NCBI GenBank assembly: GCA_044369345.1 | Contig: JBIPMC010000001.1 | Location: 1-25,504, forward strand | Length of the DNA: 25,504 nt | Origin: Terrimicrobiaceae bacterium | Lineage (GTDB): Bacteria > Verrucomicrobiota > Verrucomicrobiia > Chthoniobacterales > Terrimicrobiaceae | Direction: 5' to 3' | Shown: positions 1,027 through 6,157 of the stretch, piece after piece | Numbering within the stretch: the first letter of the stretch is position 1 | How the letters are laid out: each line of letters starts with the position of its first letter | Notes under the pieces: generated by a model | What the model saw: only the letters and a program-made list of their open reading frames with translations | Told to the model about the DNA's origin: nothing | Databases searched by the model: none | Position numbers and translations under genes: made by a program

Positions 1027-2283
1027 TTAATTCTTTTTTGAAAATAGGCTGCTGGCAGTAATGCCAACGGCTACAAGCCACATCAGATTTTTGACTGAGT
1101 TAATCCAAAATAACGAATTTTCCAAAGGGTTCTTTGAGAAGCATTTTATGAAATCGGAGTAGTTTAGCGGATACACGATTTGGCCGATCAAGAGGCTTGA
1201 GAGGAGCAAGAGTAACACGACAGCCCATATCTTTTTCGAAAGCCATCCAGCCGGAGCAAAGGGCAACAGCGAAAGCGCCCACCAAGTATATTGCGGAGCC
1301 ATGAGCTTACCGAAGCCAACGAAGACTCCCAAGAGCACAAAAAGATCGCCGGCATTCGGATCCATCTGGACATGTTGTTTTCGGAGAATCAGAAAAATGA
1401 CCCCCAATGCGATTGGAAACCACATCCAGGTTATGGCGTTTGTGGCGAAAAGTCCCAAGTCCGAATCAAAGCCGTGGATACCGTTTCGCGGTGCCATTCT
1501 GAGAGGGATATCCAGGAAATCTTGGAGTAACGGAACGAGGCTCCCCAAGAATCCATCAATGCCGAACGGCTTGTTAATGTGGAACTGGATCGCTGTCATC
1601 AACTCCTGGCTTTGGGCACCGAATATCAACAACGAAAAAGTCATCCCGAAAAGTCCCAAGGCCCACGCAAACATCGAGCTGATGCTTTTCCGGATTTTTC
1701 CAGAAAACCAAGCGCCAACGAGCAGGAGCGGAGCAAGAAGAACGGGGTAAATTTTGGTGGCCATGGCCAATCCCATGAAAAATCCGCAGGTGTTGAAATG
1801 GCCTCGTCGCCAGAAAAGCCATCCCGTTAAAACAAGGAGCGAAACCAAAAGTTCAAATCGATACAGAAGAATGGGGCCGGTCGCCGCAGCCAAAATCATC
1901 ATCACCCACGGCGTGTGTTTTTCGCCAAAAACGGCGGCGAGAAGAATGTGCAAGCAGAGTAAAATGGAATTCGCGGTTAGGAGGGCGTGGCGGAAGTCGT
2001 CGAATTTGCGCGGGTCATCCAAACCGCAAGCGGTCGCGACAAAAAACCACAGAGCGCCGGGTTGATATTCATTGTGCCCTGCATGAGCCCACGAGGAATG
2101 CTCCAAAAAAAAGACCGCGCGGGTTTGGAAGACAACCGGGTCGATTTGCAAATGCCCCAACCATCGTGGGTCGGAAGCCCTTGTCCATAGCAGCAAAACC
2201 AGAGCTGCGGTTGAGAAGATCACGGCAATCCAAAAAAGGTCGCGATCCCGGGAAAAGGATGCTGGCTGTCTGGTTTCAAGCAT
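1027..2283 (-). CDS. Glycosyltransferase family 87 / DUF2029-like GT-C multi-pass membrane protein
   Basis: 418 aa, mostly hydrophobic segments. EYQPGA loop motif and RFELL...GFFMGLAMATKIYPVLL resemble the GT87 EYPP and R-[FY]-D...KxYP signatures. Confidence 0.72.
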   Translation of the reverse strand: MLETRQPASFSRDRDLFWIAVIFSTAALVLLLWTRASDPRWLGHLQIDPVVFQTRAVFFLEHSSWAHAGHNEYQPGALWFFVATACGLDDPRKFDDFRHALLTANSILLCLHILLAAVFGEKHTPWVMMILAAATGPILLYRFELLVSLLVLTGWLFWRRGHFNTCGFFMGLAMATKIYPVLLAPLLLVGAWFSGKIRKSISSMFAWALGLFGMTFSLLIFGAQSQELMTAIQFHINKPFGIDGFLGSLVPLLQDFLDIPLRMAPRNGIHGFDSDLGLFATNAITWMWFPIALGVIFLILRKQHVQMDPNAGDLFVLLGVFVGFGKLMAPQYTWWALSLLPFAPAGWLSKKIWAVVLLLLLSSLLIGQIVYPLNYSDFIKCFSKNPLENSLFWINSVKNLMWLVAVGITASSLFSKKN

Positions 2284-2350
2284 TTAGATGTCGGAGAGGT
2301 AAAGTCAAACAGGTGCTAACTCACAAGAACCGAAAATGGTGCAACTCGAT

Positions 2351-2400
2351 CCCGCTGCGTGGTCGAGCGAGAGTTCATTCTCGCTAGACCACGCAGCGGG
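2351..2400. repeat. 50-nt near-perfect inverted repeat (hairpin/cruciform)
   Basis: CCCGCTGCGTGGTC (2351-2364) pairs perfectly with GACCACGCAGCGGG (2387-2400). After one mismatch, AGCGAGAG (2366-2373) pairs with TTCTCGCT (2378-2385), with one G.U pair. Loop is TTCA. Confidence 0.9.
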
Positions 2401-3332
2401 GACGGTGCTTTTGGTGCCGCGGGTGGTTTTTGGAGATATCGAGGCCCGGTCTATGCTTTTCAAACAGCTGTCGGTTTGTCGGGGCCGCAGGGTGCGTTTG
2501 GGGTGTCATCACTGATTCTATGGTCGCTCATTCTCATGGTGGCGGTGGAATATGTGTTGCTGGCAGTGACGGGGGCCGAGGCGCTGTATGCGGATCTGGG
2601 GCATTGCGGTCTGGGGGGGGGCATGCGGTCTTGGCGGGCCCGTGTTTGCCGCCGGCGTTGTTATGCCCCGATTTGCCGCTCCAGGGCGCGTGCCTGACGA
2701 AACTGGCGGACGGGGGCCTAGCCCCCCTGCTGATCGCTGCCGGGACAGGGGTGATGATGCTCACTTGGCGGAAAGAAGACAGAATTTGTTGCTGAGTTCG
2801 GTGGACAAGCGGGGCCTCACTGGCGTGGTTGGAGCAAGCCGTGGGAGATTTTGAAACAAGGCGGATTCAGGGCTCGCAGGTTTTTGTCTTGAGGCAATCG
2901 GGTTCGGATTATGCGGCGGCGCGAGTGCTCGAGCAATACCGCCGAATGAATGTCCTCTCAGAGAACATCGCGATCCTTTTGCAGAAATCCGCGTGGGGGA
3001 AACCTTTCGCGGAGGCCGACAATATCGTGGCAAGGCGATTGGCTGGTGGGTTGTTTGTCATCGCGACGGACCACGGCTACATGCGCAAGCCGGGTGTGCC
3101 GTGGATCCTGCGGCACGCGATCAGCAAGGGCGGGTTGGATCTCAAGGAGAGCCGGATTTTCTGCATCCTCGCGAAGGAGTTGATCGTGACTTGTCCGAGG
3201 AGATTGATGCGGCGTTGGGAGAGGGTGCTCTTAGGATTCCTCGCGCGTAATACGCTTCCCGGGCCGGACTGCCTCGCAATCCCGACGGAGCGGCTGGTTG
3301 TTTACAATTGGATGCTGCGACTCAAGGGGTGA
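2401..3332 (+). pseudogene. kup: Degraded KUP/HAK/KT potassium transporter with frameshifts and large internal deletions
   Basis: Kup motifs appear in order but in different frames: VVFGDI (2423-2440) and GPVYAF; SLILWSLILMVAVEYV; AVTGAEALYADLGH; PALL...QGA; KLADGGLAPLLI...MMLTWRK; then the C-terminal domain ...LGFLARN...IPTERLV. Total is about 0.93 kb versus about 1.9 kb for a full-length Kup. Confidence 0.8.
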
Positions 3333-3388
3333 TTCGAAGCATGGGAATGGCTTGTGGCGTGCGAGGGGTAGGGTAGATTTCGCGGCGA

Positions 3389-4573
3389 ATGGGCAAGCGC
3401 GTTTTGATTTTGTCGGCCTCGGTCGGCTCGGGGCATGTGAAGGCCGCCGATGCCTTGGCCTGCGCGATGCGCGAGCGGCACGATGTGGAGGAGGTGCTGT
3501 GCGACGATTCGCTCGACCACACGAATGTCCTCCACAAGCAGTTCTACTCGACGCTCTACAAAAAACTCTCCGAGATGCTGCCGGAATTTCTCGGCTGGTG
3601 GTATGAGAGGAGTGACGATCCATGGGTGGCCGATAAAAGCCGTCTCGCGATCGATCTCCCACAGGCGCTGCCTTTGATGAGTCTGGTGAAGGATTTCCGC
3701 CCCGATGTGATTCTTTGCACCCACTTCATGCCGGCAGGGGTGATCTCTTGGCTCATTTCGAATGGAAAACTCGACGCGCGCCTCGGCGTGGTCGTGACGG
3801 ATTTTCACTTCCATGCGTTTTGGATCACGCGGGCGTTCCACTGGTATTTCGTGGCGCAGGAGGATGACAAAATTCACATGGAGGCGCTCGGCCTGCCGTC
3901 GGATCGGATCAAAATCACCGGCATTCCCGTGGCGCCGGATTTTGCGAAATCCGTGGATGTGGATGCGGTCTTGCTGCGGCATGGATTGCAGCCGGGGCGG
4001 CCGACATTTTTGGTGGTGGGAGGCGCGCTGGGATTGAGTCCTGCGACGGCGGTGGTCCGCCAGCTTTTGAACCTCGATCGCGATTTTCAAGCGGTGATTG
4101 TTTGCGGACGCAACAAGAATATGCAGGACGACATTGTGCAACTCGTCAAATCCCGCCCGGGCGATTTTTGCGTGCTGGGTTTCACCAAAGAAATGCCCGA
4201 ACTCATGGCGGCCTCGACGATGATTCTCAGCAAGCCCGGCGGAATGACCACAGCCGAGGCATTGGCTCGCGGGCTGCCGATGATGATTCTCGATCCGATT
4301 GGTGGGCAGGAGGAGCGGAATGCCGATGTGCTCCTCGAGGTCGGCGCGGCGGTGAAATGCACGGAGGTGACGCTCGTGGCCCACAAGCTCCGCCGCTTGC
4401 TGGACAACCCGGCGCGTCTGGAGCAGATGCGCCAAGCGGCACGGTCTCTCGGTCGCCCGAATGCGGCCTCGGAAATCGCCCAGATTACCCTCGAAGAGCC
4501 GGACAAGCGGCCTGTGATTATTTCCAAGCTTCGCGAAAAAGCCCTCCGCAAGCGCATCGCCGAGGGATCGTAG
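3389..4573 (+). CDS. GT28-type diacylglycerol glycosyltransferase (MGDG synthase / UgtP-YpfP-like)
   Basis: N-terminal ILSASVGSGHVKAA, plus VILCTHF, VVTDF..H..W, ITGIPV, VIVCGRN, and the C-terminal KPGGMTTAEALARGLPM...PIGGQEERNA motif. Confidence 0.87.
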   Translation: MGKRVLILSASVGSGHVKAADALACAMRERHDVEEVLCDDSLDHTNVLHKQFYSTLYKKLSEMLPEFLGWWYERSDDPWVADKSRLAIDLPQALPLMSLVKDFRPDVILCTHFMPAGVISWLISNGKLDARLGVVVTDFHFHAFWITRAFHWYFVAQEDDKIHMEALGLPSDRIKITGIPVAPDFAKSVDVDAVLLRHGLQPGRPTFLVVGGALGLSPATAVVRQLLNLDRDFQAVIVCGRNKNMQDDIVQLVKSRPGDFCVLGFTKEMPELMAASTMILSKPGGMTTAEALARGLPMMILDPIGGQEERNADVLLEVGAAVKCTEVTLVAHKLRRLLDNPARLEQMRQAARSLGRPNAASEIAQITLEEPDKRPVIISKLREKALRKRIAEGS

Positions 4574-4575
4574 GG

Positions 4576-6105
4576 ATGCAGAACGCGCGTGAAAAATTTC
4601 TCATCGGAGTCGCCACCTCGGGCTACCAAAGCGAGGGCGGCTATAACGGGCCCGGCGATCCGAAAAACAACTGGGGTGCCTGCGAGGCCTCCGGGCGGGT
4701 TCAAAAAACCGGAGCTGCTGTGGATTTCTGGAACCGCTATCGGGGTGATTATCAGCTCGCGCGTGGACTTGGGATGAACGCCTTCCGGCTCGGCCTCGAG
4801 TGGGCGCGCATCCAGCCTTCGACCTCCACCTCGCGTGGAGCTGCGCCGGAGTTCGACAACGAGGCGATCGCCGCCTATGCGCTCCGCATCGCCGCCTGCC
4901 GGGAGGAGGGGTTGGAGCCCGTGGTGACGCTCCAGCATTTCACACATCCCGCTTGGTTGGGCATCGATGCGTGGCTGATGGACGAAACCGTCGATCTTTT
5001 CGAAATCTTCGCCCGCCACGCGATCACCCGGCTGAACGACCGTCTGGCCGATGTCCACGGCCAGCCGCCGCTGCGGTGGTATATCACGATCAACGAGCCA
5101 AACATGCTCGTGCTAAATACCTATCTGAACCGCTGTTTCCCGGGCGGGCCGGATGTCGGCGTGGCAATCGGCTTGCGGGCCTACAACCGCCTGCTCGCGG
5201 CGCATGTGCGGGCCTACAACGCCGTCCACGACCTCTACGAATCGCGCGGCTGGGCGAGGCCGCTCGTCTCAATGAACACCTTTTGTAGTGATGTTTATTG
5301 GTCGGATGTGATGTTGCTCGACCTGCTGTGCCTCCGGAAAACGGGCGTGAAGCCCCCGGAGGTCGGCGGATACTTCAAAGCCCGCGCCGAGGATTTGTCG
5401 ATCCACTTCGCCGCTGCCGCCCTGCGACGCCGCACCGACCTTGCTGCGCTCGCCGGAGCCAGCCTTCACGGCATTGCGAATTTCCTGGCCTCACGCGCCG
5501 CGACGGAGCAAGGCTGCGGCTTTTTTTTGAAGGAGCTGGAACGCGCCAAGCGCGACAGCACGCTCGATTATCTCGGCGTGGATTACTACGACCCATTCCT
5601 CAGCCACGCGCTGCGGATGCCGGATTTTTCGGACCTCGAATTTAAAAGCCGTAGCCTTTCCGCGCATCTGTTCGATGTGCTCACCAGCAAGTGGTGGGAC
5701 TGGCATTTCCTGCCAGAGGGGATGTCGGCGTTTTGCTCGTATTACGCCAAAGCCTTTCCCGGCCTTGGAATCCTGATCGCTGAAAATGGCATGTCGCAGC
5801 GCTGCAGCCGCGATAACGCTGTCGTCGCCCGACGCCCCGATGGGCTCACGCGCAGTGATTATCTCGTGGCGCATTTGCGCGAAGTGAGGGGAATGCTCGA
5901 CCGGGGGGTGGCGCTGCTCGGCTATATGCACTGGTCGCTCACCGACAACTACGAGTGGGGCTCGTTCACGCCGCGCTTTGGGCTTTACCGGATCGACTTC
6001 GCGCGCGGCTTGGAGCGGCTTGCCGTGGATCACCTCGGCGACAATCCCTCGCAAACTTTCGCGCGGCTCGTGCGGGAGCTCGGTCTCGGTGGCACGGGAA
6101 GTTGA
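4576..6105 (+). CDS. Glycoside hydrolase family 1 (beta-glycosidase / possible transglycosylase), 509 aa
   Basis: GVATSGYQSEG, FRLGLEWARIQP, TLQHFTHP, acid/base TINEP (5092-5100), nucleophile IAENG (5782-5790), WSLTDNYEW..FTPRFGL. Start moved to ATG 4576, 2 nt after the GT28 stop. Confidence 0.9.
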   Translation: MQNAREKFLIGVATSGYQSEGGYNGPGDPKNNWGACEASGRVQKTGAAVDFWNRYRGDYQLARGLGMNAFRLGLEWARIQPSTSTSRGAAPEFDNEAIAAYALRIAACREEGLEPVVTLQHFTHPAWLGIDAWLMDETVDLFEIFARHAITRLNDRLADVHGQPPLRWYITINEPNMLVLNTYLNRCFPGGPDVGVAIGLRAYNRLLAAHVRAYNAVHDLYESRGWARPLVSMNTFCSDVYWSDVMLLDLLCLRKTGVKPPEVGGYFKARAEDLSIHFAAAALRRRTDLAALAGASLHGIANFLASRAATEQGCGFFLKELERAKRDSTLDYLGVDYYDPFLSHALRMPDFSDLEFKSRSLSAHLFDVLTSKWWDWHFLPEGMSAFCSYYAKAFPGLGILIAENGMSQRCSRDNAVVARRPDGLTRSDYLVAHLREVRGMLDRGVALLGYMHWSLTDNYEWGSFTPRFGLYRIDFARGLERLAVDHLGDNPSQTFARLVRELGLGGTGS

Positions 6106-6106
6106 A

Positions 6107-6157
6107 TTGACAGGCTGATGCAGAGGGAGAAAATTGCAAATTGCGTTTCCGCAATTT
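6107..6157 (+). promoter_or_regulatory. Candidate sigma70 promoter of lipA with adjacent 8-bp inverted repeat (operator, or terminator of the upstream operon)
   Basis: TTGACA (6107-6112), 17 nt, AAAATT (6130-6135). AAATTGCG-tttc-CGCAATTT (6138-6157) is followed by a T run. Confidence 0.35.

What the first reader, a model, noticed from the sequence alone, without database searches (positions are those of the whole stretch)
3389..6105. MGDG-synthase-like GT28 coupled to an SFR2-like GH1: candidate bacterial glycolipid build-and-remodel system
Seen: the GT28 stop (4573) and GH1 ATG (4576) are 2 nt apart; the GH1 has both catalytic Glu (E174 in NEP, E403 in ENG), no evident signal peptide, and no sugar transporter nearby. 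Established: in chloroplasts MGD1 (GT28) makes monogalactosyl-DAG and SFR2, a GH1, acts as a lipid transglycosylase that converts it to oligo-galactolipids under freezing or dehydration. From memory, not a computed alignment, segments here (FRLGLEWARIQP, AWLMDETVDLFEIFAR, TINEPNMLVLNTY...FPG, LGYMHWSLTDNYEW) look closer to the SFR2/archaeal-type GH1 branch than to BglA/BglB (YRFSISWSR). Inference: a two-gene bacterial analogue for making mono- then oligo-glycosyl-DAG, or for turning glycolipids over under stress such as phosphate limitation, cold or desiccation.
Basis: partly seen in the sequence, partly recalled or inferred. Interest (0 to 1): 0.75.

Follow-up and report, generated by a model that had tools for sequence, protein, structure and literature searches.

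The report
Conserved glycolipid synthase plus GH1 gene pair
A lipid-sugar transferase gene and an unusual beta-glycosidase gene sit fused end to end here and in many Verrucomicrobia and cyanobacteria (including cultured Gloeobacter, Planktothrix and Gloeothece), which points to an undescribed bacterial system that builds and then trims or remodels a sugar-lipid; it is not a demonstrable relative of the plant enzyme SFR2.

Summary
A GT28 gene of the UgtP/MGD type (3389-4573) ends 2 nt before a GH1 gene (4576-6105). The GH1 has an intact active site and no signal peptide.

The pairing is real and conserved:
- The GH1 belongs to a deep, separate GH1 family with about 110 extra, mostly helical residues.
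- One subclade of that family (Verrucomicrobiota plus Cyanobacteriota) lies next to a GT28 in 19 of 20 loci. Flanking genes are not conserved beyond the genus.
- A second, unrelated GH1 clade lies next to a derived branch of the same GT28 lineage in 9 of 10 loci, in both gene orders.
- None of 71 control GH1 loci has a GT28 neighbour.

Family members in Actinomycetota and Myxococcota lack the GT28 partner.

The claimed SFR2 affinity is not supported. The maximum-likelihood tree puts SFR2 elsewhere, and SFR2's anchor, insert and tail are absent. A sister relation is not statistically rejected.

Best reading: the GT28 makes a beta-glycosyl-diacylglycerol and the cytoplasmic GH1 acts on its head group. 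Hydrolytic trimming or turnover is more likely than transglycosylation. No biochemistry exists.

First readers of this scan noted the same pair on at least six other genomes. I found no paper describing it.

The parts
3389..4573 (+). GT28 lipid glycosyltransferase gene (394 aa, P0001), UgtP/MGD type. The G-loop GSGH holds His16 (codon 3434-3436).
   Evidence: Pfam MGDG_synth plus Glyco_tran_28_C. The best NCBIfam hit is diglucosyl-DAG synthase NF010135 at 226.6 bits, below its cut-off of 500. The best PDB matches are 9wde, a processive DAG beta-glucosyltransferase, and 4wyi, MGD1. GSGH aligns with GNGH and GGGH, and the KPGG..T..EA and GQE..N motifs are conserved.
4562..4567 (+). Shine-Dalgarno-like GAGGGA inside the 3' end of the GT28 gene, 8 nt before the GH1 ATG. 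It suggests translational coupling.
   Evidence: Read directly from the sequence. The spacing between the stop and the ATG is 2 nt. In Gloeobacter kilaueensis the two called genes overlap by 11 nt.
4576..6105 (+). GH1 gene (509 aa, P0002). It is cytoplasmic and belongs to a distinct GH1 family. Acid/base E174 is at 5095-5097 and nucleophile E403 at 5782-5784.
   Evidence: Pfam GH1. It scores below every NCBIfam equivalog cut-off. Glycone-site residues Q18, H121, N173, Y338, W453, E460 and W461 are present. The AlphaFold2 model has pLDDT 95.1 and pTM 0.94. VIA-align gives Z 36-38 to GH1 structures with about 390-400 of 509 residues aligned.
5296..5550 (+). Family-specific helical region (residues about 241-325) between barrel strands beta5 (230-236) and beta6 (332-337). 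It begins at the C-terminal end of strand beta5, the face where GH1 active sites lie.
   Evidence: The DSSP assignment on the model shows helices 245-251, 253-256, 260-280, 289-308 and 315-323. The Pfam GH1 profile leaves about 223-329 unaligned. About 110 residues are not superposed on any solved GH1. That this region shapes the aglycone or membrane side is inference.

Best explanation
I read this as a two-gene glycolipid module.

1. The GT28 enzyme is a peripheral cytoplasmic protein of the UgtP/MGD type. It transfers hexose from a UDP-sugar to diacylglycerol, and perhaps processively to the growing head group. The product is a beta-linked mono- or oligo-glycosyl-DAG at the inner face of the cytoplasmic membrane.
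2. The GH1 protein is translated from the same mRNA and in the same compartment. It is a catalytically intact retaining beta-glycosidase whose substrate is that beta-linked head group.
3. Its most likely role is hydrolytic editing or turnover. It would cap the chain length of a processive synthase or recycle the lipid, much as dedicated hydrolases accompany processive polysaccharide synthases.

What is shown: gene order and spacing, intact catalytic sites in both proteins, the folds, and conserved and repeatedly evolved adjacency. What is inferred: the lipid acceptor, which sugar is used, that GH1 acts on the GT28 product, and hydrolysis rather than transfer.
For: Adjacency in the window's GH1 subclade:
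- It forms a clade of 18 rows with SH-aLRT support 100.
- Members lie next to a GT28 in 13 of 14 Verrucomicrobiota loci and 6 of 6 Cyanobacteriota loci.
- The cyanobacterial loci include Gloeobacter kilaueensis, Planktothrix agardhii and Gloeothece verrucosa.
- Flanking genes are not conserved beyond the genus.

Independent recruitment of a second GH1:
- A separate GH1 clade of ordinary length is GT28-adjacent in 9 of 10 loci, in both gene orders.
- On the GT28 tree, these partners and the unpaired GT28s nest inside a grade of GT28s paired with the insert-type GH1. The hydrolase partner was therefore lost or replaced, not merely inherited.

Control: 0 of 71 other GH1 loci, most with about 6 kb flanks, carry a P0001-like GT28.

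Chemistry and location:
- Characterised bacterial GT28 MGD homologues give beta-anomeric MGDG, MGlcDG and processive DGlcDG (PMC3276260). GH1 enzymes cleave or transfer beta-glycosides.
- Neither protein has a signal peptide.

Expression: exact-match contigs of a freshwater metatranscriptome lie on both genes (3422-3581, 3849-4182, 4609-4905). None lies on the neighbouring Kup remnant. This is weak evidence.
Against: - No biochemistry exists for any member.
- The wider GH1 family also occurs without a GT28. Actinomycetota members have no GT28 within 6 kb, and one such genome has no MGDG_synth at all. Two actinobacterial-type contigs put the GH1 next to PIG-L or BadF-type genes instead. Three Myxococcota loci have no GT28.
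- Many Verrucomicrobiota carry close GT28 homologues with no GH1 beside them (11 loci). One genome (G153) has the two genes unlinked.
- A synthase and a hydrolase of its own product in one operon looks futile unless activity is regulated or restricted to over-elongated products.
- The RNA contigs do not bridge the gene junction.
Confidence: 0.45

Rival explanations
1. The GH1 is an SFR2-like glycolipid:glycolipid transglycosylase. It moves hexose from one glycosyl-DAG to another, making oligo-glycosyl-DAG plus DAG without a nucleotide sugar.
For: - The adjacency evidence is the same as for the best explanation.
- A transferase avoids the futile-cycle problem of a co-translated hydrolase.
- The family-specific helical region starts at the active-site face and could exclude water or bind a lipid acceptor. 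This is inference.
- A tree constrained to unite the family with SFR2 is not rejected: p-AU 0.59 and 0.64. It even beat the quick free trees by 6.8 and 8.6 lnL.
Against: - The careful LG+C20 tree has lnL -45302.2, about 4 lnL better than the constrained tree. It places SFR2 with cyanobacterial, melainabacterial, Thermotogaceae and Planctomycetales GH1. One branch with support 95/85 lies between SFR2 and the family.
- Both groups have long stems (0.63 and 1.1-1.3), so long-branch attraction could explain the constrained result.
- The SFR2 hallmarks are absent. There is no N-terminal anchor. About 50 residues precede the FW motif against about 154 in SFR2. The beta5-beta7 span is longer here (162 residues) but shorter in SFR2 (84 residues). 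There is no C-terminal tail.
- Known GH1 transglycosidases are all from plants (my own knowledge).
Confidence: 0.2
2. The GH1 is a soluble catabolic beta-glucosidase or beta-galactosidase. It is linked to the GT28 only metabolically, for example by feeding hexose into the UDP-sugar pool, or through shared regulation. It does not act on the lipid.
For: - The glycone site is that of ordinary beta-gluco/galactosidases: Q18, H121, N173/E174, Y338, E403, W453, E460/W461.
- Family members in Actinomycetota and Myxococcota work without any GT28 neighbour.
- The second GT28-linked GH1 clade is of ordinary length and sits among ordinary GH1.
Against: - No sugar transporter, kinase or sugar regulator accompanies the pair here or in the named cyanobacteria.
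- Adjacency persists while every flank changes, and it arose with two different GH1 lineages.
- None of 71 control GH1 loci shows the adjacency.
- The GH1 scores far below the BGL equivalog cut-off: 172 against 478.5.
Confidence: 0.15
3. The GT28 glycosylates an acceptor other than diacylglycerol, such as another lipid or a small hydrophobic metabolite. The GH1 reverses or edits that glycoside.
For: - The GT28 is below the equivalog cut-offs for UgtP: 226.6 against 500.
- The genome has three MGDG_synth paralogues with different neighbours. This suggests diversified acceptors.
- In Planktothrix an Acyl_transf_3 gene follows the pair.
Against: - The MGDG_synth N-terminal domain matches over its full length, 1-169 of 169.
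- To my knowledge, characterised members with this domain use DAG or glycosyl-DAG (PMC3276260; PDB 9wde and 4wyi).
Confidence: 0.12

Closest known systems
Plant SFR2 (galactolipid:galactolipid galactosyltransferase, GH1), acting downstream of MGD1 (GT28)
   Same: The family pairing is the same: a GT28 lipid glycosyltransferase and a GH1 with both catalytic Glu. Both proteins face the same side of a membrane, and the substrates are beta-linked.
   Different: - It is not a demonstrable orthologue.
- It lacks SFR2's N-terminal anchor, the long insert after strand 1 and the C-terminal tail. It has instead its own helical region between beta5 and beta6.
- Here the two genes form an operon.
- Transferase activity is untested.
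UgtP/YpfP of Firmicutes, and RcDGlcD/RcMGlcD/RcMGD of Roseiflexus (bacterial GT28 glycosyl-DAG synthases)
   Same: The domain architecture is the same, as are the G-loop His and the UDP-sugar motifs. The best profile and PDB matches are to these enzymes. Their products are beta-anomeric and some are processive (PMC3276260).
   Different: P0001 scores below the equivalog cut-offs, and its sugar and processivity are unknown. I know of no GH1 partner for those enzymes. No GH1 family member was found in 251 Chloroflexota genomes.
Human cytosolic beta-glucosidase KLrP/GBA3 (GH1 glycosylceramidase, PDB 2e9l/2zox)
   Same: It is a cytosolic GH1 that hydrolyses a beta-glycolipid head group. It is among the structural and sequence matches.
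   Different: It is no closer than any other GH1: scores tie, with TM about 0.65. It lacks the helical region, has a different lipid substrate, and has no synthase partner gene.
Synthase-hydrolase pairs of processive glycan synthesis (for example BcsA with BcsZ in cellulose operons)
   Same: The logic is the same: a processive glycosyltransferase is encoded beside a hydrolase of its own product. This comparison rests on my own knowledge and is an analogy only.
   Different: The enzyme families are different, those products are exported polymers, and those hydrolases are periplasmic. Here both proteins are cytoplasmic and the product is a lipid.

Membership tests
GT28, MGDG-synthase/UgtP type | MGDG_synth N-terminal domain plus GT28 C-terminal domain, both above the Pfam gathering scores | tested here: met
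   86.3 bits (cut-off 25) over profile positions 1-169 of 169, and 43.6 bits (cut-off 22).
GT28, MGDG-synthase/UgtP type | G-loop histidine (GxGH) and the nucleotide-sugar motifs | tested here: met
   GSGH (H16) aligns with GNGH of 9wde and GGGH of MGD1 4wyi. KPGGMTTAEA and GGQEERN align with the same motifs. That this His is the catalytic base rests on my own knowledge.
Firmicute UgtP (diglucosyl-DAG synthase equivalog NF010135) | Score above the curated equivalog cut-off | tested here: not met
   226.6 bits against a cut-off of 500. The cyanobacterial partners score 190-195 bits.
GT28, MGDG-synthase/UgtP type | Diacylglycerol acceptor, and identity of the donor sugar | not testable with these tools
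   This needs an enzyme assay.
GH1 | Pfam GH1 above cut-off, (beta/alpha)8 fold, NEP acid/base Glu and ENG nucleophile Glu | tested here: met
   178.8 bits (cut-off 22.6). Z 36-38 at rmsd about 3 A to many GH1 structures. E174 and E403 are invariant in 39 family members.
Ordinary BglA/BGL-type beta-glucosidase (TIGR03356 equivalog) | Score above the equivalog cut-off, and grouping with such enzymes | tested here: not met
   172 bits against 478.5. The family is a separate clade with support 100 and a stem of 0.5-0.65.
6-phospho-beta-glycosidase | Score above the curated cut-off of the 6-phospho-beta-glycosidase models | tested here: not met
   The best score is 141.9 bits against a cut-off of 610. 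In addition, E460 and W461 are kept, which in my knowledge marks enzymes for unphosphorylated sugars.
SFR2 | Orthology: forms a clade with named SFR2 sequences | tested here: inconclusive
   The free trees, including the careful LG+C20 tree, place SFR2 elsewhere. The constrained clade is not rejected: p-AU 0.59 and 0.64.
SFR2 | SFR2-specific architecture: N-terminal membrane anchor, long segment after strand 1, C-terminal extension | tested here: not met
   The alignment to Brassica rapa SFR2 (P0286, 620 aa) starts at residue 155 of SFR2 and residue 51 here. It ends about 120 residues before the SFR2 C-terminus. The model's barrel spans residues 9-501 of 509.
SFR2 | Glycolipid:glycolipid transglycosylase activity | not testable with these tools
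   This needs an enzyme assay on glycosyl-DAG.

The most novel reading that the evidence does not exclude
The GT28-linked GH1 subclade is a bacterial glycolipid head-group transglycosylase. It would be a functional analogue of plant SFR2, or possibly a distant relative. It would make di- and oligo-glycosyl-diacylglycerol from the monoglycosyl lipid of its neighbour without nucleotide sugars. In cyanobacteria such as Gloeobacter it would be a second, unrecognised route to diglycosyl lipids. The GH1 tree suggests the gene moved between Terrimicrobiaceae-like Verrucomicrobia and cyanobacteria.
Probability: 0.2. Interest if true: 0.8.

Novelty: new variant of a known kind. Interest (0 to 1): 0.6.

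Why it matters
Bacterial glycosyl-diacylglycerols replace phospholipids under phosphate scarcity, and in cyanobacteria they are the main lipids of the photosynthetic membranes. As far as I could find, no bacterial enzyme that trims or remodels their head groups from the cytoplasmic side has been described.

Here a distinct GH1 subfamily is tied to the synthase gene in two phyla, and a second GH1 lineage was recruited to the same place. That is about as strong a comparative signal of shared function as sequence data can give.

The module is directly testable. It occurs in cultured strains with complete genomes (Gloeobacter kilaueensis, Gloeothece verrucosa) and in a cultured strain with a draft genome (Planktothrix agardhii). 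The Gloeobacter violaceus MGD homologue has been debated in the literature on the origin of galactolipid synthesis (PMC3276260), apparently without notice of its GH1 neighbour.

If the GH1 is a transferase, it would be the first bacterial counterpart of the plant SFR2 reaction. If it is a hydrolase, it defines a new synthase-editor pair for membrane lipids.

Tried and rejected
- **Genome-contig scan saturated.** It gave few family members. I used the result as a set of 71 control GH1 loci instead.
- **Cluster names uninformative.** Cluster look-ups of ten family representatives gave almost no organism names.
- **Chloroflexota.** I found no family GH1 at E <= 1e-40 in 251 genomes. I could therefore not test a link to the Chloroflexus-type MGD homologues.
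- **Myxococcota.** A GT21 glycosyltransferase lies convergent with the GH1 in one locus (L110). It is not near the GH1 in the other two genomes. I dropped this as evidence.
- **No named UgtP anchor.** I tried to add a named UgtP to the GT28 tree from a Sporosarcina MAG, but it has no MGDG_synth match. The GT28 tree therefore has no characterised anchor.
- **Literature gaps.** The SFR2 structure-function paper (JBC 2014) is not held, and 'glr3230' occurs in no held paper. I could not confirm from the held papers my recollection that Gloeobacter lacks dgdA, so I make no such claim.
- **AU test on the large set.** The 114-row test did not finish in two runs. I replaced it with a 62-row set.
- **RNA contigs.** Contigs of run X14 cover parts of both genes but none bridges the junction at 4573/4576. 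Co-transcription is not shown.
- **Promoter and terminator scan.** The number of sites was no higher than in shuffled sequence.
- **Structure searches.** Foldseek and VIA-align gave no preferred GH1 subgroup.
Full report
**What is there**

The window comes from a freshwater-lake Verrucomicrobium of the Chthoniobacterales/Terrimicrobiaceae. Source names of the closest hits say so, and the stretch is held by many lake metagenomes.

Gene 3389-4573 (+) encodes a 394-aa GT28 protein. It has the MGDG_synth N-terminal domain and the GT28 C-terminal domain. Its best profile match is the Firmicute diglucosyl-DAG synthase UgtP, at 226.6 bits against a cut-off of 500. Its best solved relatives are a processive DAG beta-glucosyltransferase (9wde) and plant MGD1 (4wyi). 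The GxGH loop and the UDP-sugar motifs are conserved.

Two bases after its TAG stop, ATG 4576 opens a 509-aa GH1 protein. E174 (NEP), E403 (ENG) and the glycone-site residues Q18, H121, N173, Y338, W453, E460 and W461 are all present. The enzyme should therefore be an active retaining beta-glycosidase or transglycosidase for an unphosphorylated hexoside. Neither protein has a signal peptide.

The AlphaFold2 model is very confident (pLDDT 95, pTM 0.94). It shows a TIM barrel starting at residue 9, plus a helical region at residues 241-325 between strands beta5 and beta6. All solved GH1 structures superpose equally well (Z 36-38, about 390-400 residues aligned). About 110 residues have no counterpart.

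**The GH1 is not an ordinary beta-glucosidase**

It scores far below every NCBIfam GH1 equivalog cut-off. An exhaustive representative search found about 80 clusters at 50% identity that align end to end as a single stretch at 480-550 aa. Below these, scores fall to ordinary GH1 proteins that align only in two pieces. In every tree the family is one clade with support 100 and a stem of 0.5-0.65 substitutions per site.

**Is it SFR2-like?**

The returned proteins carry source names such as 'galactolipid galactosyltransferase SFR2, chloroplastic [Brassica rapa]'.

- BLASTP to SFR2 gives 29-32% identity over core pieces. That is no better than to a second GH1 in the same genome or to solved GH1 structures.
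- Quick trees place SFR2 away from the family: 114 rows under LG+C20, and 62 rows under LG+G4 and LG+C20.
- The careful 62-row LG+C20 tree has lnL -45302.2. It places SFR2 beside a mixed group of ten GH1 rows (cyanobacterial, melainabacterial, Thermotogaceae, Planctomycetales and others) with weak support. One branch with support 95/85 lies between SFR2 and the family.
- A tree constrained to unite the family with SFR2 is only about 4 lnL worse than the careful tree. It was better than the quick trees, and it is not rejected (p-AU 0.59 and 0.64).
- Both groups sit on long stems, so this test is weak.
- In architecture the two differ. SFR2 has about 100 extra residues before the FW motif and a C-terminal tail of about 120 residues, and it is shorter between beta5 and beta7. 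This family is longer between beta5 and beta7.

Verdict: the affinity to SFR2 is not supported, and it is not excluded.

**Is the pairing conserved?**

Yes, strongly.

- *Phylum sample.* I searched 400 other Verrucomicrobiota genomes. Ten have a clear orthologue (E < 1e-100), and nine of those have the GT28 immediately upstream. Three more named MAGs show the same arrangement.
- *Cyanobacteriota.* Three of 301 sampled genomes have a GH1 that is 52-54% identical to the window protein. Each has a GT28 directly upstream.
- *Named strains.* Gene calls show MGDG_synth followed by GH1 in Gloeobacter kilaueensis (overlapping by 11 nt), Planktothrix agardhii and Gloeothece verrucosa.
- *Subclade.* In the family tree these GT28-linked proteins form one subclade of 18 rows with support 100. 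Across all loci examined, 19 of 20 are paired.
- *Flanks.* Flanking genes are shared only within the genus, and they differ in every cyanobacterium.
- *Control.* None of the 71 other GH1 loci returned by the genome scan, most with 6 kb flanks, has a P0001-like GT28.

**A second, independent association**

Other Verrucomicrobiota classes carry a different GH1 clade of ordinary length (428-459 aa) that sits among ordinary GH1. It is GT28-adjacent in 9 of 10 loci. Three of the first six loci have the order GT28 then GH1, and three have GH1 then GT28.

On the GT28 tree the cyanobacterial GT28s branch outside the Verrucomicrobial clade, which has support 97. Within that clade, the GT28s paired with the insert-type GH1 form a basal grade. 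A derived clade of 18 rows (support 97) holds both the unpaired GT28s (11) and those paired with the second GH1 clade (7).

The simplest reading is that the pair is ancestral. One lineage then lost the original GH1, and part of that lineage acquired another GH1 at the same place. Replacement of a partner by a non-orthologous enzyme of the same activity is good evidence that the activity itself is needed beside the synthase. The root of this tree is not inferred, so the order of events is an inference.

**Discordant histories**

Cyanobacterial GH1s nest inside the Verrucomicrobial ones, as sister to the Terrimicrobiaceae (support 99). Their GT28s are only 30-32% identical to P0001 and lie outside the Verrucomicrobial GT28 clade on a long stem. 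Either the GH1 moved between phyla and joined a resident GT28, or the cyanobacterial GT28 evolved much faster. Yuzawa et al. reported that the Gloeobacter violaceus MGD homologue groups with Chloroflexus homologues and attributed this to horizontal transfer (PMC3276260).

**Limits of the coupling**

- The wider GH1 family also lives without a GT28. Acidimicrobiia and other Actinomycetota loci have no GT28 within 6 kb, and one such genome has no MGDG_synth at all.
- Two actinobacterial-type contigs put the GH1 beside a PIG-L deacetylase or a BadF-type ATPase.
- Three Myxococcota loci have no GT28.
- P0001-like GT28s occur in 75 of 401 Verrucomicrobiota genomes (G000 included), far more than have the GH1.
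- The window genome itself has three MGDG_synth paralogues and two GH1 genes, and only this pair is linked.

The family's catalytic capability is therefore more general. Only one subclade is specialised to the GT28 context.

**Mechanism**

Characterised bacterial GT28 MGD homologues make beta-anomeric MGDG or MGlcDG, and one of them makes diglucosyl-DAG processively (PMC3276260). GH1 enzymes act on beta-glycosides with retention. Both proteins here are cytoplasmic and appear translationally coupled.

I therefore propose that the GH1 acts on the head group of the lipid made by its neighbour. Most GH1 enzymes are hydrolases, and the only GH1 lipid transferase I know of is plant SFR2. So I rate hydrolytic editing or turnover, meaning chain-length control of a processive synthase, above SFR2-like transglycosylation. 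Sequence cannot separate the two. The helical region that starts at the active-site face is the obvious candidate for lipid or membrane recognition, but it is a trait of the whole family, including members without a GT28.

**Expression**

One freshwater metatranscriptome holds exact-match contigs on both genes and on lipA, and none on the adjacent Kup remnant. This is a weak hint of transcription in nature. No contig bridges the junction.

**Novelty**

Eight full-text searches found no description of a bacterial GT28-GH1 module or of this GH1 family. First readers of this scan flagged the same pair on at least six other genomes; no follow-up verdict was shown with those notes. Both proteins are new subfamily members of known families. 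The conserved module, and a bacterial GH1 dedicated to a glycolipid, would be a new variant of known kinds.

Noticed in passing
window 2359-3332 (+): Only fragments of a Kup-type K+ transporter lie here: a K_trans piece at 2359-2697 and K_trans_C at 2829-3332. They sit in about 1.1 kb where a full gene needs about 1.9 kb. It looks like a truncated remnant. The C-terminal piece is also present in two genomes of the same genus (77-79% identity).
   Followed up: partly
window 6107-6134 (+): A promoter-like site (TTGACA, 16 nt, GAAAAT; 10 of 12 matches) lies in the 35-nt gap between the GH1 stop and lipA (6141). It suggests lipA-rlmH is a separate unit. The number of such sites in the region is no higher than in shuffled sequence.
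   Followed up: no
L020 454-3414 (own genome, contig C167): A second MGDG_synth-type GT28 paralogue (2212-3414) follows lpxI (454-1266) and a Gfo/Idh/MocA oxidoreductase (1263-2279). All three are on the same strand with overlapping ends. This may be a lipid-A-related role for a GT28 of this type.
   Followed up: no
L007 3214-4316 (G279, a one-contig genome): The GT28 next to an intact family GH1 is split into two reading frames (residues 4-127 and 126-379). This is either a frameshifted synthase beside a kept hydrolase or a sequencing error.
   Followed up: no
L143 6728-7777 (Planktothrix agardhii): An Acyl_transf_3 membrane acyltransferase gene follows the GT28-GH1 pair on the same strand. 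It could acylate the sugar head group. It was seen in this genus only.
   Followed up: no
L110 1420-4340 (Myxococcota, G1075): A family GH1 is convergent with a GT21 glycosyltransferase gene and overlaps it by 4 nt. GT21 is the family of ceramide and processive DAG glycosyltransferases. This arrangement is not repeated in two other Myxococcota genomes.
   Followed up: partly
L108 310-2988 (Myxococcota, G1117): The open reading frame holding a family GH1 here is 892 codons long, with about 390 residues before the GH1 domain. That N-terminal part has no Pfam match. It may be a fused domain or simply an over-long open frame.
   Followed up: no
L022 6575-8035 (-) (own genome, contig C382): The genome's second GH1 (486 aa) sits on a very long branch (1.66) and has about 80 extra N-terminal residues. 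It lies next to purC and has no GT28 nearby.
   Followed up: no
SFR2 rows in the trees: In the trees built under the site-mixture model, plant SFR2 sits nearest a group that includes a cyanobacterial GH1 (L040) and a melainabacterial GH1 (L055). Support is weak (72/88). This is a lead on the prokaryotic origin of SFR2.
   Followed up: partly
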